Under the pieces are notes generated by a model. It saw only the letters and a list, made by a program, of their open reading frames with translations. It searched no databases and was not told where the DNA came from. Shown here piece after piece: positions 2,915-64,000 of a stretch of DNA of 64,000 nucleotides. The stretch lies in contig NW_027590123.1 in NCBI RefSeq assembly GCF_964213995.1, forward strand, positions 62,001 through 126,000, in the 5' to 3' direction. This DNA is from Mustelus asterias. Its lineage: Eukaryota. Position numbers and translations under genes: made by a program. Within the stretch, counting starts at the first letter, position 1, and the number at the start of each line of letters is the position of its first letter.

Positions 2915-3515
2915 TTTAGATCTACCTGTAGTGGTAGGAAAAACACTATTTACTATCCAGGATAAAATAAATGTCCTTTCAGTGGAAATGTGCTCACCCA
3001 GGCTCAAAGAGCATCAGAGAACTAGAAGCAAAGTTGTGAGACCGGCCAGTCCAGCAGAAAGAAACCCTCCGACCCTCCCACTTCATCCACCGTCAAAATG
3101 AACATGGTTCAGTCCTGGATGTGATTAATAGCAGCAATAACAACAGAACCCAACCCCTGTCATCATTTGTGAACTCACTGGTGTCTCTGCAGGCTGGATG
3201 ATTGAGTGAATCCTTTCCCACACGGAGCAGGGGAATGGTCTCTCCCCAGTGTGAACTCACTGGTGTTCCCGCAGGCTGGATGACCTTTTAAACCTCTGTG
3301 CAGTGAGAGCAGCTGAACGGTCTCTCCTCAGTGTGAATGCACTGGTGGATCATCACATCCCGAGAACTTTTGAAACCACTTCCACAATCCGAGCAGTTAA
3401 AGGGTGTCTCATTGGTGTGAGTGAGATTGTGGCTCAGCAGGCTGGATGAATGAGTGAATTCCTTCCCACACACAGAGGAGGTGAATGGTCTCTCCCTGGT
3501 GTGAACTCACGGTGT
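2915..3515 (-). pseudogene. 3' end of a ZNF paralogue (about 4 decayed fingers plus conserved 3' element)
   Basis: ORF 3288..3473 CGKEF..HTNETPF..CSHC; HK*-* end near 3160-3170; 3' element is the reverse complement of 6680..6950. Confidence 0.85.
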
Positions 3516-3715
3516 GATCACACGGGTTGGATTCTGCTGTTATTGTTTCTGCTCTCAATTACATCCAGGACTGCATTTTGTTCATTCTCACAGTTGGTCA
3601 ATGGGGAGGGTCGGAGGGTTTCTTTCTGCTGGACTGACCGGTCTCACAAAGTTTGCCTCCAGTGGGCTGATGCTCTTTGAGACTTGTTGCGAATACCTGG
3701 TTTCAGATTTCACAC

Positions 3716-4009: not shown

Positions 4010-5021
4010 ATTTGAAAAATAGTTTGTGAGCTCCTTTTGACCTAAAAGAGGCCAACATCTGTGAGTAAAACACTTTCTTTGCTCCGCTTTTGCGTTTCTT
4101 TTGCATTCTGGGGGAAATTGGGGACTTGTTGAATTTTTAACTTCCAGGTCACCACTCGCTGCCTGAATAAAAATCCTCCTCACATTCTTCATGTATCTGT
4201 AACCAGGTAATACAGTGCATTACACACATCATCAATCATTAAAACTTTAAAGTGGCTGTCAGCTTGAAGATTAATCATAGATCATTTGCACTTCCACAAC
4301 CCCCTGAGGCAGCGGCTTCCAGGTAATGACCTTTCTGCACCTTTCTGCACCGAAATAAAATTCTTCCCCATACCCTTCTCCTTCTCCCAATCCAGTTATC
4401 CGGTCCCACATATGGCACAGATTTTAATTTCTAGCGTGTAGGCCGGTCATTACACGTAGATTTTCAGATCTCTGTGTCCAGTACAGGAAGTAGTCAGCAT
4501 GGATCCGTTAATCAGCCATAGACTTGGGAGGTTGTATACTCAGGAGAGCAGAGTGAGAATTGAGGGAGAATGTGTGGGATGGAGATTGACAGCTTTTGGG
4601 GAATGAGAGAGGAAAGAATGTTCCATAGAAACTAGAATTGTCTGTTCTGAATTTCTATCCTGTGCTGACAGTGATGTCTGTTGTAAATTCCTTTCATAGA
4701 TATCAGGAGATGAGGATTTATAGACAGAAATTTCAAACTAAACATCACATGAAGATTTGACCTCAATATCATCGACCTTTGAATCTAGAAAAGCAATGTT
4801 TGTCTGATCTGTTTGCTTCAGGAGATTTTAAACATCAGTGTGACTGGAACACACCCGAGTGAGAGTGTTCCAGTCCACCGATAGTGGAAAGAGCTTTAAC
4901 CAGTTACACAGGCTGAAACAACATTGCACTGTTTACAGTGAAGAGAGATCGTACACGTGTTCTGTGTGGACAAGGATTCAACTGATCATCAAACCTGGAG
5001 AGTCACAAGGACACCCGCATC

Positions 5022-6548
5022 ATGGAGAAACTGTGGAAATGTGACGATTGTGGACAAGGATTCATGTTGCCCTGTGATTTGGAAATCCATCAATGCAGTC
5101 ACACTCGGGAGAGACCCTTCACTTGCTCAGTGTGTGGGAAGGGATACATTAAGTTCTCCCACCTGCAGAGTCACAATCTCACTCACACCAATGAGAGACC
5201 CTTTAAATGCTCTGACTGTGGGAGCGGATTCAGAAGCTCTGGAGAACTGGTGTCCCACCAGCGCATTCACACTGAGGAGAGACCGTTCAGCTGCTCTCAC
5301 TGCACAATGAAATTTAAATGGTCATCCACACTGCGGAGACATCAGCGAGTTCACACCGGGGAGAGACTGTTCAGCTGCTCCATGTGTGGGAAGGGATTCT
5401 CTCGGTCCTCCGAACTGCGGGCACACCAGCGAATTCACACTGGGGAGAGACCGTTCACCTGCAATGTGTGTGGGAAGGGATTCTTTCGGTCATCCGCCCT
5501 GCTGACGCACAAAGTCACTCACACCAATGAGAGACCCTTTAAATGCTCTGACTGTGAGAGTTGCTTCAAAAGTTCTCGGGATCTGATGTCCCACCAGCGC
5601 ATTCACACTGAGGACAGACCGTTCAGCTGCTCTCACTGCACAATGAGATTTAGATCATCATCAAACCTGCGGAACCATCAGCGAGTTCACTCCGGGGAGA
5701 GACCATTCACTTGCTCTGACTGTGGGAAGGGATTCACGCAGTTATCCGCCCTGCTGACACACCAGCGAGTTCACACCGGAGAGAGGCCATTCACCTGCTC
5801 TGTGTGTGGGAAGGGATTCACTAATTTATCCAACCTGCTGAGTCATAAAGTCACTCACACCAGTGAGAGGCCCTTTAAATGCTCAGACTGTGGGAGCGAA
5901 TTCAAAATTTCTGGGGAACTGGTGTCCCACCAGCGCATTCACACTGAGGACAGACCGTTCAGCTGCTCTCTCTGCACAAAGAGGTTTAAGAGGTCATCCA
6001 CACTGCAGAGACACCAGCGAGTTCACACCAGGGAGAGACCATTCATCTGCTCTGTGTGTGGGAAGGGATTCAGTCAGTCATTCACCCTGCTGACACACCA
6101 GCGTCTTCACACCGAGGAGAGACCATTTACCTGCACCGAGTGTGGGAAGGGATTCACTCTGTCATCCACCCTGCTGACTCACCAGCAAGTTCACAGCGGG
6201 GAGAGACCGTTCACCTGCTCAGAGTGTGGGAACAGATTCACTCGGTTATCCAGCCTGCACAGACACAAAGTCACTCACTCCCAGGAAAGACCCTTTAAAT
6301 GCTTTGACTGTGGGAGTGGCTTCAAAATTTCTGAGCATCTGATAGACCACCAGCGCATTCACACTGGGGAGAGACCGTTCAGCTGCTCTCACTGCACAAA
6401 GAGGTTTGGAAGGACATGCACACTGAGGAGACACCAGCGAGTTCACACTGGGAGAGACCATTCACCTGCTCTGTGTGTGCGGAAGGATTCTCTCGATACC
6501 CCAGCTGCTGACGCACAATGTCCCTCACACCCAGGAGAGACCCTTTAA
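5022..6548 (+). CDS. C2H2 zinc-finger protein, 17 tandem fingers, frameshifted tail
   Basis: 508-aa ORF with HTGERPF linkers; a 1-nt deletion near 6450 shifts the last fingers out of frame. Confidence 0.9.
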   Translation: MEKLWKCDDCGQGFMLPCDLEIHQCSHTRERPFTCSVCGKGYIKFSHLQSHNLTHTNERPFKCSDCGSGFRSSGELVSHQRIHTEERPFSCSHCTMKFKWSSTLRRHQRVHTGERLFSCSMCGKGFSRSSELRAHQRIHTGERPFTCNVCGKGFFRSSALLTHKVTHTNERPFKCSDCESCFKSSRDLMSHQRIHTEDRPFSCSHCTMRFRSSSNLRNHQRVHSGERPFTCSDCGKGFTQLSALLTHQRVHTGERPFTCSVCGKGFTNLSNLLSHKVTHTSERPFKCSDCGSEFKISGELVSHQRIHTEDRPFSCSLCTKRFKRSSTLQRHQRVHTRERPFICSVCGKGFSQSFTLLTHQRLHTEERPFTCTECGKGFTLSSTLLTHQQVHSGERPFTCSECGNRFTRLSSLHRHKVTHSQERPFKCFDCGSGFKISEHLIDHQRIHTGERPFSCSHCTKRFGRTCTLRRHQRVHTGRDHSPALCVRKDSLDTPAADAQCPSHPGETL

Positions 6549-6679
6549 ATGCTCTGACTGTGGGAATGGTTTCAAAAGCTCTCAGGAACTGATGATCCAC
6601 CAGTCCATTCACAGCTGCTGTGTGTGGGAAGAAATTCACCAGTTCATCCCTCCTGCTGAGACACCAGCGAGTTCACAAG

Positions 6680-6950
6680 TGATGACAGGGGTTGGATTCT
6701 GCTGTTATTGCTGCTGTTAATCACATCCAGGACTGAACCATGTTCATTCTGACAGTTGGTGAAGCGGGAGGGTCGGAGGGTTTCTTTCTGCTGGACTGGC
6801 TGGTCTCACAACTTTGCTTCCAGTGGGTTGATGCTCTCTGAGCCTGGGAGAGCACATTTCCACTGAAATGACCCACACAAACTGACGAAGAACATTTATT
6901 TTATCCTGGACAGTAAATAATGTTTTTCCTACCACTACAGGTAGATCTAC
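6680..6950 (+). repeat. conserved ZNF 3' element (3'UTR), cluster-wide
   Basis: copies at 2915..3165(-), 3515..3716(+), 22419..22473(+), 29705..29928(-), 55698..55895(+) and 63015..63200(-). Confidence 0.85.
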
Positions 6951-7502
6951 AGTAAGTACATTTGTCTCTGTTCCATTGAGTCTACAGCACAGGGCCGGGC
7001 CAGTCGGCCCAATTGGTCTGTGTCAGTATTTATGCTCCACATGAGCCTCCACCCACCCCTCTTCATCTCCCCCCATCAGCATATCCTTCTATTCCTCTCT
7101 CCCTCATGTATGTATCTAGCTTCCCCTTCAATGTATTCATGATGTTCACCTCAACCACTCACTGTGGTAGTGAGTTCCACATTCTCACCACTCGCTGGTA
7201 AAGAGGTTTCTCACTGAAATCCCTATTGGATTATTGAACCCCTTCATAATCTTAAAGACTTCCATCAGGTCACCCTTCAGTCTTCTCTTTTCTAGAGAAA
7301 AGCAGCCCCAGCCTTTCCTGAGGGTTAAATGCTCTCAGTTCTGGGATTATTCTTGTGAATCTTTGTTGCTCCTTCTCCAGTGCCTCTATTTCCTTTTTCT
7401 AAATGGAGATCACAAATGTTGACAATGCTCCCAGTGTAGCCGAACCCTGATTCTAAACAAGTTGAACAGAACCTCCCTGCTGTTCAATTCTATCCCTCTA
7501 GA

Positions 7503-12155: not shown

Positions 12156-13424
12156 ATGGAGAAACCATGGAAATGTGGGGACTGTGGGAAGGGATTCAGG
12201 TTCCCATTTCAGCTGGAAATTCATCGACGCAGTCACACTGGGGAGAGACCGTTCACCTGCTCTGTGTGTGGGAAGGGATTCACTCAGTTATCCAGGCTGC
12301 GCGCACACAATCTCACTCACACCCGGGAGAGACTCTTTAAATGCCCTGACTGTGGGAGTGGTTTCAAAAGCACTGCAGAACTTGTAACCCACCAGCGCAT
12401 TCACACTGGGGAGAGACCGTTCAACTGCTCTCACTGCTCAAAGGGATTTAAAAGGTTATACACTCTGCAGAGACACCAGCGAGTTCACACTGGGGAGAGA
12501 CCATTCACCTGCTCTGTGTGTGGGAAGGGATTTGCACAGTCATCCAGCCTGCTGAGTCACAATATAACCCACACCAATGAGAGACCCTTTAAATGCTCTG
12601 ACTGTGGGAGCAGCTTCAAACGTGCTGCGGATCTGAGGGACCACCGGCGCAATCACACTGAGGAGAGTCCGTTGAGCTGTTCTCACTGCACTAAAAAATT
12701 TAGAACATCATCCACACTGCGGAAACATGAACGAGTTCACACCGGGGAGACACCTTTCACCTGCACCATGTGTGGGAAGGGATTCACTCAGTTAAGCCAT
12801 CTCTGGAGACACCAGCGAGTTCACACGGGGGAAAGGCCATTTACCTGCACTGTGTGTGGGCAGGGGTTCACTCAGTTAAACAATCTCCTGAGACACCAGC
12901 GAGTTCACACTGGGGAGAGGCCATTCACCTGCACCATATGTGGGCAGGGATTCACTCAGTCATCCGACCTGCGAATACACCAGCGAATTCACACTGGGGA
13001 GAGACCGTTCATCTGCTCTGTGTGTGGGAAAGAATTCAATGATTCATCCACCCTGCGGGCACACCAACATATTCACACCGGGGAGAGGCCATTCAAATGC
13101 TCTCTGTGTGGGAAGGGATACGTTCACTCTTCTGACCTGCAGACACACCAGCGAATTCACACTGGGGAGAAACCGTTCAGTTGCTCTCACTGCACAAAGA
13201 GGTTTAATAGGTCATCCGACCTGCTGGCACACCAGCGAGTTCATACTGGGGAGAGACCATTCAGTTGTTCTCATTGCACAAAGAGGTTTCATCGGTCATC
13301 TGACCTGCTGAAACACCAGCCAGTTCACACTGGGGAGAAACCGTTCACCTGCTCCATGTGTGGGAAGGGATTCACTCAGTCATCCAGCCTACGGGTACAC
13401 CAGCGGGTTCACACCAGGGAGTGA
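12156..13424 (+). CDS. C2H2 zinc-finger protein, 15 fingers
   Basis: ACCATGG start, MEKPWKCGDCGKGF; ORF ends at a TGA inside a linker. Confidence 0.9.
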   Translation: MEKPWKCGDCGKGFRFPFQLEIHRRSHTGERPFTCSVCGKGFTQLSRLRAHNLTHTRERLFKCPDCGSGFKSTAELVTHQRIHTGERPFNCSHCSKGFKRLYTLQRHQRVHTGERPFTCSVCGKGFAQSSSLLSHNITHTNERPFKCSDCGSSFKRAADLRDHRRNHTEESPLSCSHCTKKFRTSSTLRKHERVHTGETPFTCTMCGKGFTQLSHLWRHQRVHTGERPFTCTVCGQGFTQLNNLLRHQRVHTGERPFTCTICGQGFTQSSDLRIHQRIHTGERPFICSVCGKEFNDSSTLRAHQHIHTGERPFKCSLCGKGYVHSSDLQTHQRIHTGEKPFSCSHCTKRFNRSSDLLAHQRVHTGERPFSCSHCTKRFHRSSDLLKHQPVHTGEKPFTCSMCGKGFTQSSSLRVHQRVHTRE

Positions 13425-13640
13425 CTGCTCACCTGCTCTCTGTGTGGGAAGGGATTCACTCAGTCATCCAGCCTACGGGTACACCAGCGGGTTCACACCA
13501 GGGAGTGACTGCTCACCTGCTCTGTGTGTGGGAAGGGATTCACTCAGTCATCCAGCCTACGGGTACACCAGCGGGTTCACACCAGGGAGTGACTGCTCAC
13601 CTGCTCTGTGTGTGGGAAGGGATTCACTCAGTCAGCAAAC
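13345..13640 (+). repeat. near-perfect 84-bp tandem triplication of one finger
   Basis: unit ...GGGAAGGGATTCACTCAGTCATCCAGCCTACGGGTACACCAGCGGGTTCACACCAGGGAGTGACTGCTCACCTGC x3. Confidence 0.9.
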
Positions 13641-21662: not shown

Positions 21663-22421
21663 ATGGAGAAACCGTGGAAATGTGGGGACTGTGGGAAGGG
21701 ATTCAGGTTCCCATCTGAGCTGGAAACTCATCGACGCATTCACACTGGGGAGAGACCATTCACCTGCTGTGTGTGTGGGAAGGGATTCTATGATTCATCC
21801 AACCTGCAAACACACCAACGAATTCACACGGGGAAGAGACCATTCACCTGTTCTGATTGTGGTACCAGATTTACTCAGTTATGTCATCTGCAGACACACC
21901 AGCAAATTCACACTGCGGAGAGACCGTTTACCTGTCCTGTGTGTGGGAAGGGATTCACTGACTTATCCAGCCTGCGGATACACCAGCGAGTACATTCCGG
22001 GGAGAGGCCATTCAACTGTCCTGTGTGTGGGAAAGGATTCACTTGGTTATCCAGCATGCGCAGACACAGAGTCACTCACAGCAATGAGAGACCCTATAAA
22101 TGCTCTGAATGTGGGAGCGACTTCAAAAGCTCTCAGGTTCTGATGTCCCACCAGCGCATTCACACTGAGGAGAGACCGTTCAGTTGCTCTCACTGCGCAA
22201 AGAGATTTAGAATGTCATCCTATCTGCGGGTACACCAGCGAGTTCACACTGGGGAGAAACAATTCACTTGCTCTGCCTGTGGAAAGGGATTCACTCAGTT
22301 AACCAATCTGCAGAGACACCAGCGAGTTCATACTGGGGAGAGGCCATTCACCTGCACCGTGTGTGGGAACGGGTTCACTCAGTCATCCCACCTGCAGACA
22401 CACCAGCGAGTTCACAAGTGA
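21663..22421 (+). CDS. C2H2 zinc-finger protein, 9 fingers
   Basis: ACCATGG start, intact fingers, ends HQRVHK*. Confidence 0.9.
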   Translation: MEKPWKCGDCGKGFRFPSELETHRRIHTGERPFTCCVCGKGFYDSSNLQTHQRIHTGKRPFTCSDCGTRFTQLCHLQTHQQIHTAERPFTCPVCGKGFTDLSSLRIHQRVHSGERPFNCPVCGKGFTWLSSMRRHRVTHSNERPYKCSECGSDFKSSQVLMSHQRIHTEERPFSCSHCAKRFRMSSYLRVHQRVHTGEKQFTCSACGKGFTQLTNLQRHQRVHTGERPFTCTVCGNGFTQSSHLQTHQRVHK

Positions 22422-22974
22422 TCACAGGCGTTGAATTCTGCTGTTATTGCTGCTGTTAATCACATCCAGGACTGGGCTCATTGGCAGGCTCTTTAACAGA
22501 AAGTGAGTCCCTCTAAGGTAATTGACAAAGGAGCCAGAGGGGGAGATTAGATTTTATTTTTGACTCAGCGATGTTAGAAAATGGGGTTCAGGGAGTCAAT
22601 TAACCCTTTCTCCCCTTTTCCCAAACTCTGAAATGATTGCCAGTGATAACCCTTATTGGTGACAGTGGTTAGATTTTATTCAGTATCAATAAGAGCTGAC
22701 ACAGGCTAATGTCTGAGCAGTCGTATCAAAGTGCAGCAGCATTACCATTACACTCTGGGTAGAAGCAGCATCTCCACGGAAATGCTCCCTGCTCTGCCCC
22801 AGATGCCATGGCACCAGTCAATGCAAAATGTAAAACCTCGACAAATCTCTGTGCTCGGTGAATCCCTTCTTATACTTTTTTACATCACAAAGTCTATGGA
22901 GACTGATTTAACCCAATCATTGCCGAGCCAACATTTGAACGGACCAATTACAAAACCAAATGGTGCAAAGGGAC

Positions 22975-28480: not shown

Positions 28481-29925
28481 AAACTTGGCCAAGTTAGTGA
28501 AGAATGATTGAAGACAAATTGCTCGACACCCAGGTCTGTTCCAATCATCAAATGGTCTTTATTTTACAGCGGGCGGGGAGCAAGTCGCTGGTCTCACCTT
28601 GCAACCTCTCCCCTGAATATGGAAAATCGCACATTCTTATTCATTTACTGCAGCCCATCCCAGATGATTACAAACTAATCACAATATGAATCGATTCCAG
28701 ACATATCCAATCAAGCTAACAATTAGGCATCATGTGGCTGTGTGGTCAGCTCATGGACAGCTCTGGACCATCTCATCATGTGGACCAGACACCTTATAAC
28801 AACTGACCTTGTGACATCACAATGACTCACTATACTCAGGACTTTCTGATCTCCACCACATCCCAGCCTATTCCGTTAGCAGTCGGTTACTCAGTGCAGC
28901 TGCCTGTGTGCTGATAAGAGGGGCCCTGCTGAGCAGCTTTAATGGTCCGTGATTGCAGAAACTGAGCAGTCACAGGAATGTGGTCAAGATAGTCCAGTCC
29001 CACAATGCCTCACATTCAATCTGCAGTCCTTCAATTATAACAGAATATGTGGCTGTATGTAGCTGCCTCGGCCATGGTCAACCCCAACACTGCCTTCCTG
29101 AACTGATACAATGCCTGAGGTGTAAGTACACCCACAGTGATGTTAGGGAGGGATTTCCAGCTACAAATCCAGACTTTAACTGAACTGTCGGTGGATACCA
29201 GATTGATATATTCCATTCAACCACACCCAAGGTGAGTTATTCCAATTCCTTTATTGTCCAGGACAATATATTCACAATATCTTTAAAACAGAAATTAAAC
29301 ATTCCCATTTGATTTCAGGCAGTAACATATTCTGTTAGTTTGTTCTTTATTGTCAATGTGAGACTGGGGTTGTTCCCCTTGGAGCAAAGGAGGTTGAGGG
29401 GAGATTTGATAGAGGTGGACAAGATTCTGACAGGTTTAGATAAGGTGGACAAAGAAAAGCTGTTCCCATTAGCTGATGGGACAAGGACGAGGGGGACACA
29501 GATTTAAGGTTTGGGTCAGAGATGCAGAGTGGGGGGGGCGGGGGGATGTGAGGAAGAATATTTTGATGCAGTGAATGGTAATGACCTGGAACTCGCTGCC
29601 TACGAGGGTGGAGGAAGTGGAGACAATAAACAATTACAAAGGAAATTGGATGGGCATTTGGGGGGTTTCAAACAGAAATGCTGACTAAATATCTCTTACC
29701 TTCCTCACACCCTGTCACTCTGTGATCCTTGTGAAATTTGAAACCAGGTATTCGCAACAAGACTCAAAGAGCACCAGCCCACTGGAGGCAAAGTCATGAG
29801 ACTGGCCAGTCCAGCAGAAAGAAACCCTCCGACCCTCCCCATTGACCAACTGTAAGAATGAACAAAATGCAGCCCTGGATGTAATTGAGAGCAGAAACAA
29901 TAACAGCAGAATCCAACCCCTGGAA

Positions 29926-30600
29926 TCACTCATGAACTTGTTGGTGTCTCAGCAGCAAGAATGAAACTCTGAATCCCTTCCCACACTGAGAGCAGGTAAA
30001 TGGCCTCTCCCCAGTGTGAACTCGCTGGTGTCTCCACCAGCTGGATGACCGAGCAAATCCCTTCCCACACTGAGAGCAGGTGAATGGTTTCTCTCCAGTG
30101 TGAATTCGCTGGTGTGTCTGCAGATCGGATAACTGAGTGAATCCCTTCCCACACAGGGAGCAGGTGAATGGCCTCTCCCCAGTGTGAACTCGCTGGTGCC
30201 TCCGCAGGTTGGATGACTCACTAAATCCCTCCCCACACACAGAGCAGCTGAATGGCTTCTCCCCAGTGTGACCTCGTTGGTGTCTCTGCAGGTTGGATGA
30301 CTGAGTGAACCCCTCCCCACACTGATAGCAGATGAATGGCCTCTCCCCAGTGTGAATGCGCTGGTGTGTCTGCAGAGTAGATAACCGAGTGAATCCCTTC
30401 CCACACTGAGAGCAGGTGAACGGCCTCTCCCCACTGTGAACTCGCCGGTGTCTCTGCAGGCTGGATGACAGAGTGAATCCCTTCCCACACTGAGAGCAGA
30501 TGAATGGCCTCTCCCCAGTGTGGCTGCGCCGATGAGCATCCAGCAGAGATGGGGATCTGTAACTCTTCCCACAGTCTGCACATTTCCATGGTTTCTCCAT
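29926..30600 (-). CDS. C2H2 zinc-finger protein, 8 fingers
   Basis: ACCATGG start at 30600, [10 protein letters not shown], ends HQQVHE*. Confidence 0.9.
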
Positions 30601-44312: not shown

Positions 44313-45653
44313 ATGCTGACGCGACAGCGAGCTCGCAATAGTGAGAGTTCATTCACCTGCTCCGTGTGTGGGAAGAAATTCATGTGTTCGTCCAACCTTC
44401 TGGCTCACCAACTCGATCACATTGATGAGGAGCCTCTTCAAAGCTCTGACTCTGGGGACAGCGTTGAGACACCTGAGGAACAGGCCCAATACCAGCTCCT
44501 TCACACTGACGAGAGACCGTTCAGCTGCTCCCACTGCGGGAAGAGGTTCAGCCAGTCCTCCCGCCTTGCAGAGCACCAGCTCCTTCACACACACGAGAGA
44601 CCGTTCAGCTGCTCCCACTGTGGAGAGTCGTTCAGCGACTCAGTGCATCTCACTGAGCACCAACAAGTTCACACCAAGGACAGGCCATTCAGCTGCTCCC
44701 AGTGTGGGAAGAGATTCACTCAGTCCTCCCACTGCACAGAGCACCAGCTCATTCATTCTGATGAGAGAAGTTTTAAATGCTCAGAGTGTGAGAAGACCTT
44801 TAAAATGAACAATAGTCTCCTGAGACACCAATGCACTCACAGTGGGGAGAGGCCGTTCCCGTGCTCTGTGTGTGGGAGGAGATTCAATCATTCATTCCAC
44901 CTTCTGAGGCACAAACTTGTTCACACGGGGGAGAAACCATTCACCTGCTCCGAGTGTGGGAATGGATACACTCGCTCATCTGACCTTGTGATACACCAAC
45001 GAATTCACACCGGAGAAAGGCCGTTCACCTGCTCCAAGTGTGGGAGGGGATTCACTCGTTCAACGCACCTTGTGATGCACAAGCGGATTCACATTGGGGA
45101 GAGGCCATTCTCTTGCTCTGTGTGTGGGAAGAGATTCACTCAGTCATCCGCCCTGCGCACACACAAGCGAGTTCACACCGGGGAGAGGCCGTTCACCTGC
45201 TTCGTGTGTGGGAAGAGTTTCCCTCGTTTGTCCCATGTTGTGATACACGAGCGGGTTCACACCGGGGAGAGGCCGTACATTTGTCATGTGTGCGGGAGGG
45301 CCTTTACTTGTTTACACCACGTGCAGAAACACCAGCTTGTTCACACCGGGGAGAAGGCCTTCATCTGCTCCGTGTGTGGGAAGCGTTTCCCTGAGTCCTC
45401 CAGCCTCCAGAGACACGAACGCATCCACACTGGGGAGAAGCCGTTCACCTGCTGTGTGTGTGGGAAGGGATTTGTTCAGTCGTTCGACCTGGTTAAACAC
45501 CGACGAGTTCACACCAGGAAGAAGCTGCTCACCTGCTCTGTGTGTGAGAAGAGATTTACTCGGACATCCCGCCTGCTGAAACACCAGAAACTTCACATCT
45601 TACCAACAAAGCTGGACTCTGCTGTTGCTGCTGAGAATCACACCCAGGACTGA
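44313..45653 (+). CDS. C2H2 zinc-finger protein, 14 intact plus 1 degenerate finger, C-terminal LDSAVAAENHTQD
   Basis: open frame from 44295, first ATG at 44313 (start uncertain); divergent subfamily. Confidence 0.85.
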   Translation: MLTRQRARNSESSFTCSVCGKKFMCSSNLLAHQLDHIDEEPLQSSDSGDSVETPEEQAQYQLLHTDERPFSCSHCGKRFSQSSRLAEHQLLHTHERPFSCSHCGESFSDSVHLTEHQQVHTKDRPFSCSQCGKRFTQSSHCTEHQLIHSDERSFKCSECEKTFKMNNSLLRHQCTHSGERPFPCSVCGRRFNHSFHLLRHKLVHTGEKPFTCSECGNGYTRSSDLVIHQRIHTGERPFTCSKCGRGFTRSTHLVMHKRIHIGERPFSCSVCGKRFTQSSALRTHKRVHTGERPFTCFVCGKSFPRLSHVVIHERVHTGERPYICHVCGRAFTCLHHVQKHQLVHTGEKAFICSVCGKRFPESSSLQRHERIHTGEKPFTCCVCGKGFVQSFDLVKHRRVHTRKKLLTCSVCEKRFTRTSRLLKHQKLHILPTKLDSAVAAENHTQD

Positions 45654-47639: not shown

Positions 47640-48710
47640 GCATTCGCCAAATCCAACTCTTGCACTCATTTGTGAACTCACTGGTGTCTCAGTAGGTTGG
47701 ATGATGGAGTGAGTCCCTTTCCCACACACACAGCAGGCGAATGCACCCTCCTCAGTGTGAACTTGCTAATACGCCAGCAGCTCAGATGAGTCAGCAAATT
47801 CCTTCCTTCACCTGGAGCATCTGAACAGCCTCTCTCCGGAATGAACTTGCTGGTGTGCCGACAGACTGGCAACTGAGTAAATCCATCTCCACAAATGGAG
47901 AATGTGAAAGTTCTCTCCTCAGTGTGACTGTGTTGATCATTTCCCAGTTGAAACGGGTAAATGAATCCCATCCCTCAATCCCCATATGTCCATGCTTTCT
48001 CCATGGTGCTGGTGTCCTTGTGTCTCTCCAGGTTGGATGATCAGTCAAAGCTTCATCCACACACACAACACGCATACAGTCTCTCCTCGCTGTGAATGCT
48101 GTGATGTATTTTCAGGATGTGTAACCGGTTAAAGCTCTTTCCACACTCCGTTCACTGGAACACTCTCACTCGGGTGTGTCTGTGTCTCGGTGCTTTTCCA
48201 GTCACACAGATATTTGAAATAGGGCGGCACGGTAGCACAGTGGTTAGCACTGCTGCTTCACAGCTCCAGGGACCTGGGTTCGATTCCCGGCTTGGGTCAC
48301 TGTCTGTGTGGAGTTTGCACATTCTCCTCGTGTCTGCGTGGGTTTCCTCCGGGTGCTCCGGTTTCCTCCCACAGTCCAAAGATGTGCTGGTTAGGTTGAT
48401 TGGCAATGCTAAAAATTGCCACTTAGAGTCCTGAGATGCGTAGGTTAGAGGGATTAGCGGGTAAATATGTGGGGGTAGGGCCTGGGTGGGATTGTGGTCG
48501 GTGCAGACTCGATGGGCCGAATGGCCTCCTTCTGCACTGTAGGGTTTCTATGAAATCTTTTACCACAGATAGAACAAACAAACATTTCTCCTTCCACATT
48601 GAAAGGTTAATGATATTCAGGTCCTGATGAATCGAGTGATTCTGTTAGATCTCAATGTGATGTTTGGCTATAAGTTCCCGACCTGTAAATCATCCCCTGC
48701 TAATACCCTG
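47640..48710 (-). pseudogene. decayed ZNF terminal exon interrupted by a SINE
   Basis: degenerate MEKAWTY start at 48004, broken fingers, HK* end near 47667. Confidence 0.85.
48222..48552 (+). mobile_element. young full-length HE1-like SINE
   Basis: near-identical to 17905..18246; tgaaat on both sides (possible TSD). Confidence 0.9.
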
Positions 48711-49372: not shown

Positions 49373-49979
49373 ATTTACTTTTGGTTTATATTAAACAACA
49401 TTTTAATTAATTTTGATACATTTTCTTTGAAGTTCTGTCTTTTTGTTACAATGATGTTTTGAGGAGATTTCACTTGTTAATTAGTTTATTTGTTTTAGTG
49501 GTATAAAAAACAGAACACAGATCAGAGACCTCACTGACTTCAGCCCAAAGTGGAACCACAGGAAGAGGAGACTCCACAAACATCCCTATTCTCAATGATG
49601 GGTCCAGCACATCAAGACTGGGTTTTGTGTTTACTGAGGCCGAGTGTGTTATCACTACCTTCACTGATTCCCCAGGTGAGGAGAGATGTTGTGGAAGGTC
49701 TGGGTCCAAGGGAATAGCTGAAGGTCCGCAACTGAAATGATCCAGACAGTGAGAAAGGAGAAAAAAAATACTCACAAATGGAGCAGTCAGTAACAGGATA
49801 TCGAATAATCTCCTCTTATCCTGGAGAAATAAAGGACACGACGGTGTGTCTGAAATAATATTAGTTCATTTGACACGCATCGGAATACTAAACTGCAGCA
49901 AGTTATGGAGATTATTAACATCAGCATGAAGAAACTCCAGCTCTCAGGCTGAACATGTTTCAGGCTGGGATGTGATTAA

Positions 49980-50225
49980 TCTGGAATTAAAAGTCTACTG
50001 ATGACCATGAAACCATTGACGATTGTCGGAAAAACCCATCTGGTTCACTAATGTCCTTCAGGGAAGGAAATCTGCCGCCCTTACCTGGTCTGGCCTACAT
50101 GTGATTCCAGAGCCACTGCAATGTGGTTGACTCTGAGATGGCCTCTGAAATGGAGGGGAATTAGGGATGGGCGATAAATGCTCGGCCCAGTCAGCGACCC
50201 TCACGTCCTGTAAGATGAATTTTTA
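49980..50225 (+). mobile_element. second SINE-like family, 3' part (also 52380..52715, 59080..59340(-), 8210..8305(-), 54375..54495(-))
   Basis: shared aaaacccatctggttcact..ggaaggaaatctgcc..gggatgggc.ataaatgct. Confidence 0.75.
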
Positions 50226-50254
50226 AAGATAACAGCAGAATCCAAATCCTTCCA

Positions 50255-51178
50255 TCATTTGTGAACTTTCTGGTGTCTCAAAAGGTGGGATGAGTGGATG
50301 AAGGTCTTCCCACAGTCAGAGCAAAGGAATGGCCTCTCCCCAGTGTGAACTCGCTGGTGTGTCAGAAGATTGGCTGAATGAATGAATCCTTTTCCACACG
50401 TGGAGCAGGTGAACGACCTCTTCCCAGTGTGAACTCGCTGGTGTTTCTGGAGGCTGGATGACAGAGTGAATCCTGTCCCACACACTGTACATCTGAATGG
50501 CCTCTCCCCATTGTGAACTCGCTGGTGTGTCAGCAGGTCAGTTGTGGTTCTGTAAGTCTTCTCACACTCAGAGCATTTGAAAAGTCTTTTATCCGTGTGA
50601 ACCAGTTGGTGTTTAGCAAGGTGGGATGATCGTGCAAATGCCTTCTCACACACAGCGCAGGTGAATGGCCTCTCCCCAGTGTGAACTCGCTGGTGTATCA
50701 GCAATTCATTTGTGGTTTTATAACTCTTCTCACATTCAGTACATTTGAGAGGTCTGTTATCAGTGTGAACCAGTCGGTGTGTAGTGAGGTAGGATAATCG
50801 CGTGAATCCCTTCCCACACACAGAGCAGGTGAATGGCCTCTCCCCAGTGTGAGTGCGTTCATGTTCGATGAGGTTCTGTGATCGTATGAACCCCCTCCCA
50901 CAGTGAGAGCAACTGAACTGTCTCTCAGTGTGAACAACCTGGTGCGTGACCAGGTCCTCCGAGCTTTTAAAGTTGCTTTCACAGTCCGAGCGGTTTAACA
51001 GCCTCTCATCAAGGTGAACTTGCTGGTGTGAAAGCAGGTGGGATGACTGAATGAATCCTTTCCCACACATGGAGCAGGTGAATGGTCTCTCCCCAGTGTG
51101 ACTGCGTTGATGATTTTTAAGCTGGGAAGGGTAACTGAACCCCTTCCCACAATCCGCACATTTCCACTGTTTCTCCAT
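50255..51178 (-). CDS. C2H2 zinc-finger protein, 10 intact plus 1 degenerate finger
   Basis: ACCATGG start, MEKQWKCADC, ends HQKVHK*. Confidence 0.9.
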   Translation of the reverse strand: MEKQWKCADCGKGFSYPSQLKNHQRSHTGERPFTCSMCGKGFIQSSHLLSHQQVHLDERLLNRSDCESNFKSSEDLVTHQVVHTERQFSCSHCGRGFIRSQNLIEHERTHTGERPFTCSVCGKGFTRLSYLTTHRLVHTDNRPLKCTECEKSYKTTNELLIHQRVHTGERPFTCAVCEKAFARSSHLAKHQLVHTDKRLFKCSECEKTYRTTTDLLTHQRVHNGERPFRCTVCGTGFTLSSSLQKHQRVHTGKRSFTCSTCGKGFIHSANLLTHQRVHTGERPFLCSDCGKTFIHSSHLLRHQKVHK

Positions 51179-52379: not shown

Positions 52380-52715
52380 AGACTATTAATCCAGAAACTC
52401 AGCTAATGTTCTGGGGACCCGCGTTCAAATCCTGCCACAGCAGGTGGTGGAATTTGAATTCAACAAAAAATATCTGGAATTAAGAATCTACTGATGACCA
52501 TGAAACCATTGTCGATTGTCGGAAAAACCCATCTGGTTCACTGATGTCTTTTAGGGAAGGAAATCTGCCATCCTTTTCTGGTCAGGCCTACATGTGACTC
52601 CAGAGCCACAGCAATGTGGTTGACTCTCAACTGCCCTCTGAACAAGGGCAACTAGGGATGGGCAATAAATGCTGGACAGCCAGCGACATCCATGTCCCAT
52701 AAATTAATTTTTAAA
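52380..52715 (+). mobile_element. second SINE-like family, near full length
   Basis: B-box-like cgttcaaatcc near 52422; body shared with 49980..50225. Confidence 0.75.
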
Positions 52716-62852: not shown

Positions 62853-63189
62853 ATGTGAGGAATAATATTTTGATGCAGCGAATGGTAATGATCTGGAACT
62901 CGCTGCCTACGAGGGTGGAGGAAGTGGAGACAATAAACAATTACAAAGGAAATTGGATGGGCATTTGGGAGGTTTCAAACAGAAATGCTGACTAAATATC
63001 TCTGAACTTCCGAGCACCCTGTCACTCTGTGATCCTTGTGAAATTTGAAACCAGGTATTCGCAACAAGACAAGAGCATCAGCCATTGGAGGCAAAGTTGT
63101 GAGACCGGTCAGTCCAGCAGAAACAAACCCTCCGACCCTCCCCATTGACCAATATAATTGAAAACAGAAACAATAACAGCAGAATCGAC

Positions 63190-64000
63190 CACTGGAACCA
63201 CTCGTGAACTCGCTGGTGTACCAATAGCTGAGATGAAAGACTGAATCTCTTCTCACACACAGAACAGCTGAACGGTCTCTCCCCAGTGTGAATTCCCTGG
63301 TGTGTCTGCAGGCAGAATAACCGAGAGAACCCCTTTCCACACACAGAGCAGGTGAACGGTTTCCACCCAGTGTGAACTCGCTGGTGTGTCTGCTGGCTGG
63401 ATGAATCACTGAACCGCTTCCCACACAGAGTAGGTGAAAGGCCTCTCCCCAATGTGAACTCGCTGGTGCCTCCGCAGGTGGGATGACTGAGTGAATCCCT
63501 TCCCACACAGAGAGCAGGTGAATGGTTTCTCCCCAGTGTGAACTCGCTGGTGTGTCCGCAGGCTGGATGAAGTTATGAATGCCTTCCCACACTGAGAGCA
63601 GGTGAACGGTCTCTCCCCAGTGTGAACTTGCTGGTGTGTCCGCAGGCTGGATGACCGAGTGAATCCCTTTCCACACTGAGAGCAGGTGAACGGTCTCTCC
63701 CCAGTGTGAACTCGCTGGTGTGTCCGCAGGCTGGATGAAGCTCTGAATCCCTCCCCACACTGAGAGCAGGTGAAGGGCCTCTCCCCGGTGTGAACTCGCT
63801 GGTGTCTCCACAGGTTGGAGGACCGAGTGAATTCCTTCCCACACAGAGAGCAGGTGAACGGCCTCTCCCCAGTGTGAACTCGCTGGTGTGTCCGCAGGTT
63901 GGATGAAGCTCTGAATCCCTTCCCACACTGAGAGCAGGTGAACGGCCTCTCCCCAGTATGAACCCGCTGGTGTGTCCGCAGGCTGGAAAACTGACTGAAT
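63190..64000 (-). pseudogene. 3' part of a ZNF (about 9-10 fingers visible) with a frameshift near 63430; continues beyond the window
   Basis: 84-bp finger periodicity; true-frame tail in ORF 63078..63506 ([16 protein letters not shown]). Confidence 0.8.

What the first reader, a model, noticed from the sequence alone, without database searches (positions are those of the whole stretch)
6680..6736. Cryptic in-frame C-terminal peptide behind the UGA stop, coding in one paralogue
After the last finger the frame continues HK**QGLDSAVIAAVNHIQD* (6680; 55698 with LDF), HK*SQALNSAVIAAVNHIQD (22419), HK**QGLGSVVIAAINHIQD* (3165-), HE*FQGLDSAVIVSALNYIQ (29928-), HK*WKDLDSAV (50257-) and HK*VQELDLANAAV (47669-). 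In the 44313 gene it is translated without a stop (HILPTKLDSAVAAENHTQD*), and near 63200 the TGA is TGG, followed by a frameshift. The first stop is always UGA and many changes are conservative. Inference: an amphipathic helical effector or degron motif, either an ancestral tail switched off or one expressed by read-through.
Basis: partly seen in the sequence, partly recalled or inferred. Interest (0 to 1): 0.7.

Follow-up and report, generated by a model that had tools for sequence, protein, structure and literature searches.

The report
Shifting stop in shark zinc-finger genes
Hundreds of duplicated zinc-finger genes in a probable shark genome share the same 57 bases behind their last finger; most genes stop just before them and let them decay like ordinary untranslated sequence, while several subfamilies lack that stop and would carry a short, probably tolerated extra tail, so this looks like a shifting gene end and not a hidden read-through switch.

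Summary
The translations are as described, but the segment is the start of a 3' UTR shared by a very large C2H2 zinc-finger family (108 of 144 finger arrays sampled). Read-through is not supported. Of 92 non-redundant copies 62 have TGA and 13 TAA, and none has UGA-CUAG. Only 12 of 42 intact stop-bearing genes have a tail readable after one read-through. Recent changes behind a stop are neutral (synonymous 10 of 44; 10 of 41 in a second sample), and no RNA fold is shared. The focal copy has two stops and lies behind an upstream frameshift. The tail is open in at least five subfamilies (about 270 pattern matches), not in one gene, and the 44313 class is also open in contigs from three other organisms. 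Selection on these open tails is weak or absent (8 of 23 synonymous at unbiased positions). A faint codon signal among deep lineages (p 0.02-0.10) leaves an old protein ending possible. The scan noted this before on other DNA (e1-9548137).

The parts
6680..6736 (+). Focal post-stop segment: TGA TGA, 16 open codons (QGLDSAVIAAVNHIQD), TGA; untranslated
6737..6960 (+). Continuation of the shared family 3' UTR, about as well conserved between paralogues as the segment
   Evidence: 85% over 300 nt to the 3184- copy; identity to majority 0.79-0.89 in all six 30-nt bins; covered in 4 of 4 runs
4986..6548 (+). Host C2H2 zinc-finger ORF, 17 fingers, frameshifted near 6446 so that it ends before the focal segment
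44313..45653 (+). Zinc-finger gene of the divergent ILPTK class with the tail in frame (45597-45653, ILPTKLDSAVAAENHTQD*); 16 near-identical copies in the assembly
22419..22475 (+). Copy behind an intact 9-finger gene; single TGA, homology ends right after the segment
55698..55754 (+). Copy behind an intact 11-finger gene; double TGA
3109..3165 (-). Copy behind a broken gene (stop inside the last finger); double TGA
29869..29928 (-). Copy of the VIVSAL subtype (3-nt insertion, second stop replaced by TGC) behind an 8-finger ORF
49937..50257 (-). Copy behind an intact 10-finger gene, split by a 247-bp interspersed repeat at 49982-50228
   Evidence: 60 hits of the insert in 1.26 Mb, 26 of them 150 nt or longer
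47650..47668 (-). Truncated copy behind a broken finger
63150..63200 (-). Copy with TGG at the stop position followed by a frameshift, in a frameshifted gene
3514..3684 (+). Orphan copy of the UTR joined to the reverse strand of a finger array (rearrangement junction)

Best explanation
The segment is the first 57 bases of a 3' region shared by a very large duplicated C2H2 zinc-finger family; behind a stop it collects frameshifts, extra stops and neutral substitutions like untranslated DNA, and in the subfamilies without the stop it would be translated as an 18-19 residue tail that is probably tolerated more than selected. Shown: family-wide presence, the stop and sense states, neutral recent change behind the stop, open frames in at least five subfamilies. 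Inferred: the stop was present in the ancestor of the two large gene classes and was lost several times by single-base changes (TGA to CGA, TCA, GGA, AGA; CGA then to CAA); the open proteins are made. Open: whether the founder of the whole family translated the tail (about even odds), which would make it a relic C-terminus.
For: Present after 108 of 144 arrays in 1.26 Mb. Homology continues 120 nt or more past the second stop at similar identity. Exact-pattern counts: 494 TGA/TAA among 577 well-kept sites. Of 50 intact genes (7 or more fingers in frame): 12 clean after one stop, 16 with a second stop within four codons, 14 frameshifted or truncated, 7 open, 1 other. Within 17 stop-bearing families: 10 synonymous, 32 missense, 2 nonsense, 7 indels; second sample from two other contigs: 10, 29, 2, and 7 of 15 frameshifted; neutral expectation 0.27-0.28 synonymous. 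Open subfamilies, 117 tails read: 12 synonymous, 16 missense, 1 nonsense; 8 of 23 at positions the search patterns left free, p=0.30. Open genes are scattered on a tree built from the 5' leader alone, at least 8 state changes. Most sense codons seen are one step from TGA or TAA.
Against: Codon model with stops masked: omega 0.655 in frame against 1.8 and 1.5 in the other frames and 1.03 in the UTR behind; column permutation p=0.029, and p=0.022 for stop-bearing copies alone. With stops counted the whole-tail signal falls to p=0.10 or 0.049, but the LDS..QD core of stop-bearing copies stays at p=0.016-0.019, and 8 open representatives give p=0.035. No frameshift in 117 open tails (the patterns fix the first half of most). 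The 44313 class has 3 synonymous to 1 missense change and is open in three other organisms. In-frame indels are 22 of 50 in the tail against 22 of 75 behind it.
Confidence: 0.68

Rival explanations
1. The tail is an ancestral, functional C-terminal helix (partner-binding or stability motif), still used in the open subfamilies and switched off in most genes by a stop gained once or several times.
For: The most divergent class on the leader tree holds the 44313 gene; relatives in three other organisms have TCA or TTA at the stop position, a second open member exists in this genome (L067), and the sister gene at C71:4374558 has TGA, so in this class the stop is probably derived. Residual codon signal in the core (p=0.016-0.019). 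Majority peptide amphipathic (p=0.035); AlphaFold puts a 7-residue helix there at pLDDT about 53. About 270 open pattern matches.
Against: No outgroup, so the root is not known. An open 18-codon frame survives neutral drift 51-79% of the time at 5-14% divergence. The 44313 and L067 tails are no more alike than the UTR behind them. Open families are near neutral. The 44313 tail is not amphipathic. The Mad1 and HBP1 Sin3-binding patterns given in PMC10163088 are not met. The core window was chosen after seeing the data, and the signal rests largely on three third-position C sites.
Confidence: 0.2
2. The segment is kept as a DNA or RNA element (3' UTR regulatory motif, weak 3' splice-site region, or C/D-box-like RNA) and the peptide is incidental.
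For: Slightly fewer changes per site in the tail (2.98) than in the next 60 nt (3.78) or the last finger (3.95). Retained in contigs of 4 of 4 other runs. The sequence TTCATTCT(G/C)ACAG at 6743-6755 looks like a splice acceptor, and the focal copy has TGATGA...CTGA (sequence).
Against: No consensus fold; single-copy z-scores from -1.8 to +1.9; best Rfam match 16.7 bits against a cut-off of 55, E=5.2; TGATGA in only 15 of 62 TGA copies; no 6678-6756 joint among the 15 of 34 joints shown. Retention falls with distance from the gene, as duplication alone would give.
Confidence: 0.09
3. Programmed UGA read-through (or selenocysteine insertion) makes a minor, tail-extended form of most proteins of the family.
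For: TGA is the commonest stop (62 of 75); the in-frame omega is below 1 when stops are masked; double-stop read-through has been predicted in mosquitoes (PMC5100048, passages), so a double stop alone does not exclude it.
Against: TAA in 13 of 75; UGA-CUAG in 0 of 62; only 12 of 42 intact stop-bearing genes keep a clean tail; nonsense changes not depleted; no shared structure and no SECIS match in 6500-7100; the focal gene ends before the segment.
Confidence: 0.03

Closest known systems
Birth-and-death tandem C2H2 zinc-finger gene families (KRAB-ZNF of tetrapods, FiNZ-ZNF of cyprinids; PMC10547256, listing, start of abstract and term search only)
   Same: Large clustered family of recently duplicated multi-finger genes with many broken copies; paralogues share flanking untranslated DNA by descent. 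The catshark paper mentions zinc-finger gene clusters with many recent duplicates (PMC11979771, one passage).
   Different: Pfam finds finger models and no KRAB or other effector domain in the 44313 protein. The term search of PMC10547256 found no mention of shark, chondrichthyan or C-terminal tails. Here the stop position differs between subfamilies.
Conserved stop-codon read-through genes (UGA-CUAG genes OPRL1, OPRK1, AQP4, MAPK10, PMC4132726 passages; insect candidates, PMC5100048 passages)
   Same: An open frame between a first UGA and a second stop, with some synonymous changes.
   Different: First stop not conserved, no CUAG, frequent frameshifts and nonsense changes in the second frame. 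PMC5100048 itself excludes recent nonsense changes as a source of false coding signal.
Short amphipathic co-repressor motifs (Sin3-interaction domains of Mad1 and HBP1; patterns as printed in PMC10163088, passage)
   Same: Short predicted helix with an AA pair between hydrophobic residues.
   Different: The hydrophobic spacing of neither printed pattern is met; no PDB chain matches the tail profile at E up to 10.

Membership tests
Programmed stop-codon read-through | First stop codon conserved in identity | tested here: not met
   62 TGA, 13 TAA, 17 other of 92 non-redundant copies
Programmed stop-codon read-through | Stimulating context (UGA-CUAG) or conserved downstream structure | tested here: not met
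   0 of 62 TGACTAG; no consensus fold; z -1.8 to +1.9
Programmed stop-codon read-through | Second frame free of frameshifts and stops in intact genes | tested here: not met
   12 of 42 intact stop-bearing genes clean; repeat insertion at 49982-50228
Programmed stop-codon read-through | Protein-coding substitution pattern behind the stop | tested here: inconclusive
   Neutral on recent branches; weak on deep branches, p 0.016-0.10
Programmed stop-codon read-through | Ribosomes or peptides past the stop | not testable with these tools
   Only contigs were on offer
Selenoprotein (UGA recoding) | SECIS element in the 3' UTR | tested here: not met
   No SECIS family match at E up to 10 in 6500-7100; UTR beyond 7100 and SECISearch not run
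C/D-box snoRNA | Conserved C and D boxes, Rfam match | tested here: not met
   SNORD5 16.7 bits against 55; TGATGA in 15 of 62 TGA copies
Sin3-interaction domain (Mad1 or HBP1 type) | Hydrophobic pattern around the AA pair | tested here: not met
   Compared by eye with the patterns printed in PMC10163088; no PDB hit
Functional C-terminal motif in the open genes | Purifying selection on the translated tail | tested here: inconclusive
   12 of 29 synonymous (p=0.08), 8 of 23 at unbiased positions (p=0.30); p=0.035 among 8 representatives
Tandem C2H2 zinc-finger gene family | Clustered multi-finger genes with TGEKP-type linkers, recent duplicates and broken copies | tested here: met
   98-100% copies on many contigs

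The most novel reading that the evidence does not exclude
The tail is the ancestral C-terminal co-factor-binding helix of an effector-less shark zinc-finger family, and single-base changes at one codon switch whole subfamilies between a bare DNA-binding array and a tail-bearing regulator, a gene-family-level on/off switch for an effector module.
Probability: 0.12. Interest if true: 0.6.

Novelty: new member of a known kind. Interest (0 to 1): 0.22.

Why it matters
As read here it is an ordinary case of stop-codon loss and gain in a duplicating gene family, useful mainly as a marker for annotating and classifying these genes and as a caution: masking stop codons and sampling by pattern both gave false signs of coding selection. 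If the open tails did prove functional, they would offer a candidate effector for a family of many hundreds of zinc-finger genes in a lineage reported to have lost KRAB-domain gene families (PMC8455134, passage).

Tried and rejected
Protein homologue searches: C-terminal 40 aa of the 44313 ORF, 1 candidate, none scored; tail read with TGA as Arg, 41 candidates, none scored. The first shows that the collection barely reaches these zinc fingers, so neither is evidence of absence. ESM Atlas: generic zinc-finger clusters at 0.82-0.83 only. Pfam: nothing on three tails. PDB: no hit. The profile search of 1.84 billion representatives never ran, so tail-bearing proteins in other species are untested by that route. 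No RNA holder on record; runs are RNA by guess and contigs only, so expression and read-through are untested. Tail as a decayed finger: no score against a finger DNA profile. A 77-nt intron from 6679 to 6755: no such joint among those shown. CGA as the ancestral codon with repeated CpG decay: not favoured, since TGA lineages far outnumber CAA ones; 0 TGA beside 45 CGA/CAA copies in one family and 1 beside 143 in another are too few events to show selection. An early contrast of open against stop families (9:3 against 10:34, p=0.0014) did not hold with more copies and with pattern bias removed (p=0.39). Paper searches listed no paper on this tail; only term searches or outlines of six papers were read, no supplements.

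Full report
Setting. The window is a cluster of C2H2 zinc-finger genes at G000:C91:62001-126000 in a 3.68-Gb assembly. That it is a shark is inferred from earlier scan notes and the genome size; I did not test it. The segment had 2251 first-look candidates in the assembly, and the 40 scored were 98-100% identical, on many contigs. Unplaced contigs may include haplotype duplicates, so match counts are not gene counts.

Observation. The focal copy reads TGA TGA, 16 codons, TGA at 6680-6736. Its host ORF is frameshifted near 6446 and ends at 6548, so the segment cannot be reached in frame. The copy at 50257- follows an intact 10-finger gene and is split by a 247-bp repeat with 60 hits in 1.26 Mb. 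Homology does not end at the second stop: 85% over 300 nt between two window copies, and 0.79-0.89 identity to the majority in all six 30-nt bins among alignable copies, with 50-53 of 59 alignable in the first 60 nt and 31-38 of 59 further on. Contigs from four runs of four other coded organisms cover all 30 bins of 6500-7000 at 80% likeness; the runs are RNA only by guess.

Family survey. In 1.26 Mb of contiguous tiles, 108 of 144 finger arrays have a match to the segment behind them. Of 114 anchored copies, 76 are non-redundant at 95%: TGA 47, TAA 13, other 16 (three of these have the stop deleted). A further 200 kb from two other contigs gave 16 new copies, 15 TGA and 1 TCA. Whole-assembly exact patterns gave 494 TGA/TAA, 569 with any T-starting codon and 8 with another first base. 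Subfamily patterns with a sense codon gave 68 (mostly KSLQGLDSAVAA[N/H]PMQD), 143 (K[R/G]LQGLDSTL.DAVNHIQ[V/D]), 45 (R[R/Q]QQGLDSAVIAAVNH[I/T]QD) and 16 (ILPTK) matches, plus 5 identical KQLQ matches among the 8. So the tail is open in at least five subfamilies, many with 10-15 intact fingers.

Read-through. Papers describe a conserved first stop and a clean second frame (PMC5100048, passages) and UGA-CUAG in mammals (PMC4132726, passages). Here 13 of 75 stops are TAA, 0 of 62 TGA copies have CUAG, and of 42 intact stop-bearing genes 12 are clean, 16 have a second stop within four codons and 14 are frameshifted or truncated (a stricter rule gave 15 clean of all 76 against 18 here). There is no consensus fold, five single copies give z from -1.8 to +1.9, and Rfam gives nothing near threshold.

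Codon signal, for and against. A codon model on 53 copies gave omega 0.655 in frame, 1.82 and 1.55 out of frame, 0.66 for the last finger and 1.03 for the next 20 codons (17 of 76 copies were dropped for a broken last finger or a deleted stop, and more for poor alignment). Column permutation gave p=0.029 and p=0.022 for stop-bearing copies. These fits mask stop codons, and the tail gains many. Counting them, the synonymous share is 0.325 against 0.273 (p=0.10), with 16 nonsense steps against a null mean of 8.9; the core of stop-bearing copies keeps p=0.019. On a tree from the 5' leader alone the values are p=0.049, 0.095 and 0.016. The positive control was itself weak (finger p=0.054), so power is limited. 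Recent change is neutral: 10 synonymous, 32 missense, 2 nonsense and 7 indels in 17 stop-bearing families (a few open KQLQ copies may be lumped in), and 10, 29, 2 with 7 of 15 frameshifted in the second sample, against an expectation of 0.27-0.28. In-frame indels are 22 of 50 in the tail; the commonest, -12, lies in the segment's own 12-nt repeat.

Open tails. Among 117 open-family tails there are 12 synonymous, 16 missense and 1 nonsense change, one 12-nt deletion and no frameshift. My patterns were degenerate at synonymous positions; at free positions, tallied by hand, the share is 8 of 23 (p=0.30). The 44313 class is the longest branch of the leader tree. Contigs of this class in 3 of 4 runs carry TCA or TTA at the stop position (read from the 40 of 83 rows shown), L067 is open, and the sister gene at C71:4374558 has TGA. 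The open state is therefore probably old in this class, but neutral survival of such a frame is 51-79%, and the 44313 and L067 tails are no more alike than their UTRs. The majority peptide is amphipathic (0.38, p=0.035), the 44313 tail is not (0.14, p=0.63); a single-sequence model gives a 7-residue helix at pLDDT about 53. Pfam, PDB, the ESM Atlas and two protein searches gave no relative of the tail; the protein collection seems to hold few such genes.

History. On the leader tree the state changes at least 8 times among 62 genes, open genes lie mostly in an unresolved basal radiation, and there is no outgroup. Both large classes (MEKPWKC and MEGKSTVH leaders) are mostly stopped, and most sense codons are one step from TGA or TAA, so repeated stop loss is the simpler inference for them. 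For the whole family an open founder with TCA and a stopped founder need about the same number of steps.

Verdict. A real, family-wide homologous segment; no read-through; translated in principle in several subfamilies, with little sign that its residues matter; possibly a relic protein end. Paper searches listed no description of this tail. Papers seen: passages of PMC5100048, PMC4132726, PMC8455134, PMC11979771 and PMC10163088; term search and start of abstract of PMC10547256; abstract and outline of PMC11620358; no supplements.

Noticed in passing
window 3470-3684 +; also C115 near 387900 and C71 near 6584130: A copy of the family 3' UTR is joined directly to the reverse strand of a finger array; the same inversion junction occurs in three sampled places.
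   Followed up: no
window 49982-50228: A 247-bp interspersed repeat, likely a SINE, sits inside the post-stop segment of an intact gene; a second copy lies about 2.5 kb away near 52475-52715.
   Followed up: partly
window 13350-13600 +: Three near-identical 84-nt finger units each carry the same in-frame TGA in the linker (TRE*LL): a broken finger was tandemly re-duplicated.
   Followed up: no
L098 (G000:C71:4370001-4380000): A long G+C-rich tandem repeat open for more than 440 codons in three frames, beside the sister gene of the 44313 class.
   Followed up: no
G000:C2:74024110, C2:119478545, C2:162689672, C4, C14, C16, C17, C19: Single dispersed copies of the segment on large chromosomes outside the clusters; could be retrocopies or orphan genes.
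   Followed up: no
window 6743-6755 + and 29855-29875 -: Just behind the segment lies a pyrimidine run ending in ACAG that looks like a splice acceptor, strongest in the VIVSAL subtype; no matching joint among those shown.
   Followed up: partly
L305-L334 (RRQQ/RQQQ family): The last finger is far more variable than the tail (57 alleles in 63 nt, 45 missense, against 7 in 57 nt), which fits diversifying change or finger shuffling.
   Followed up: no
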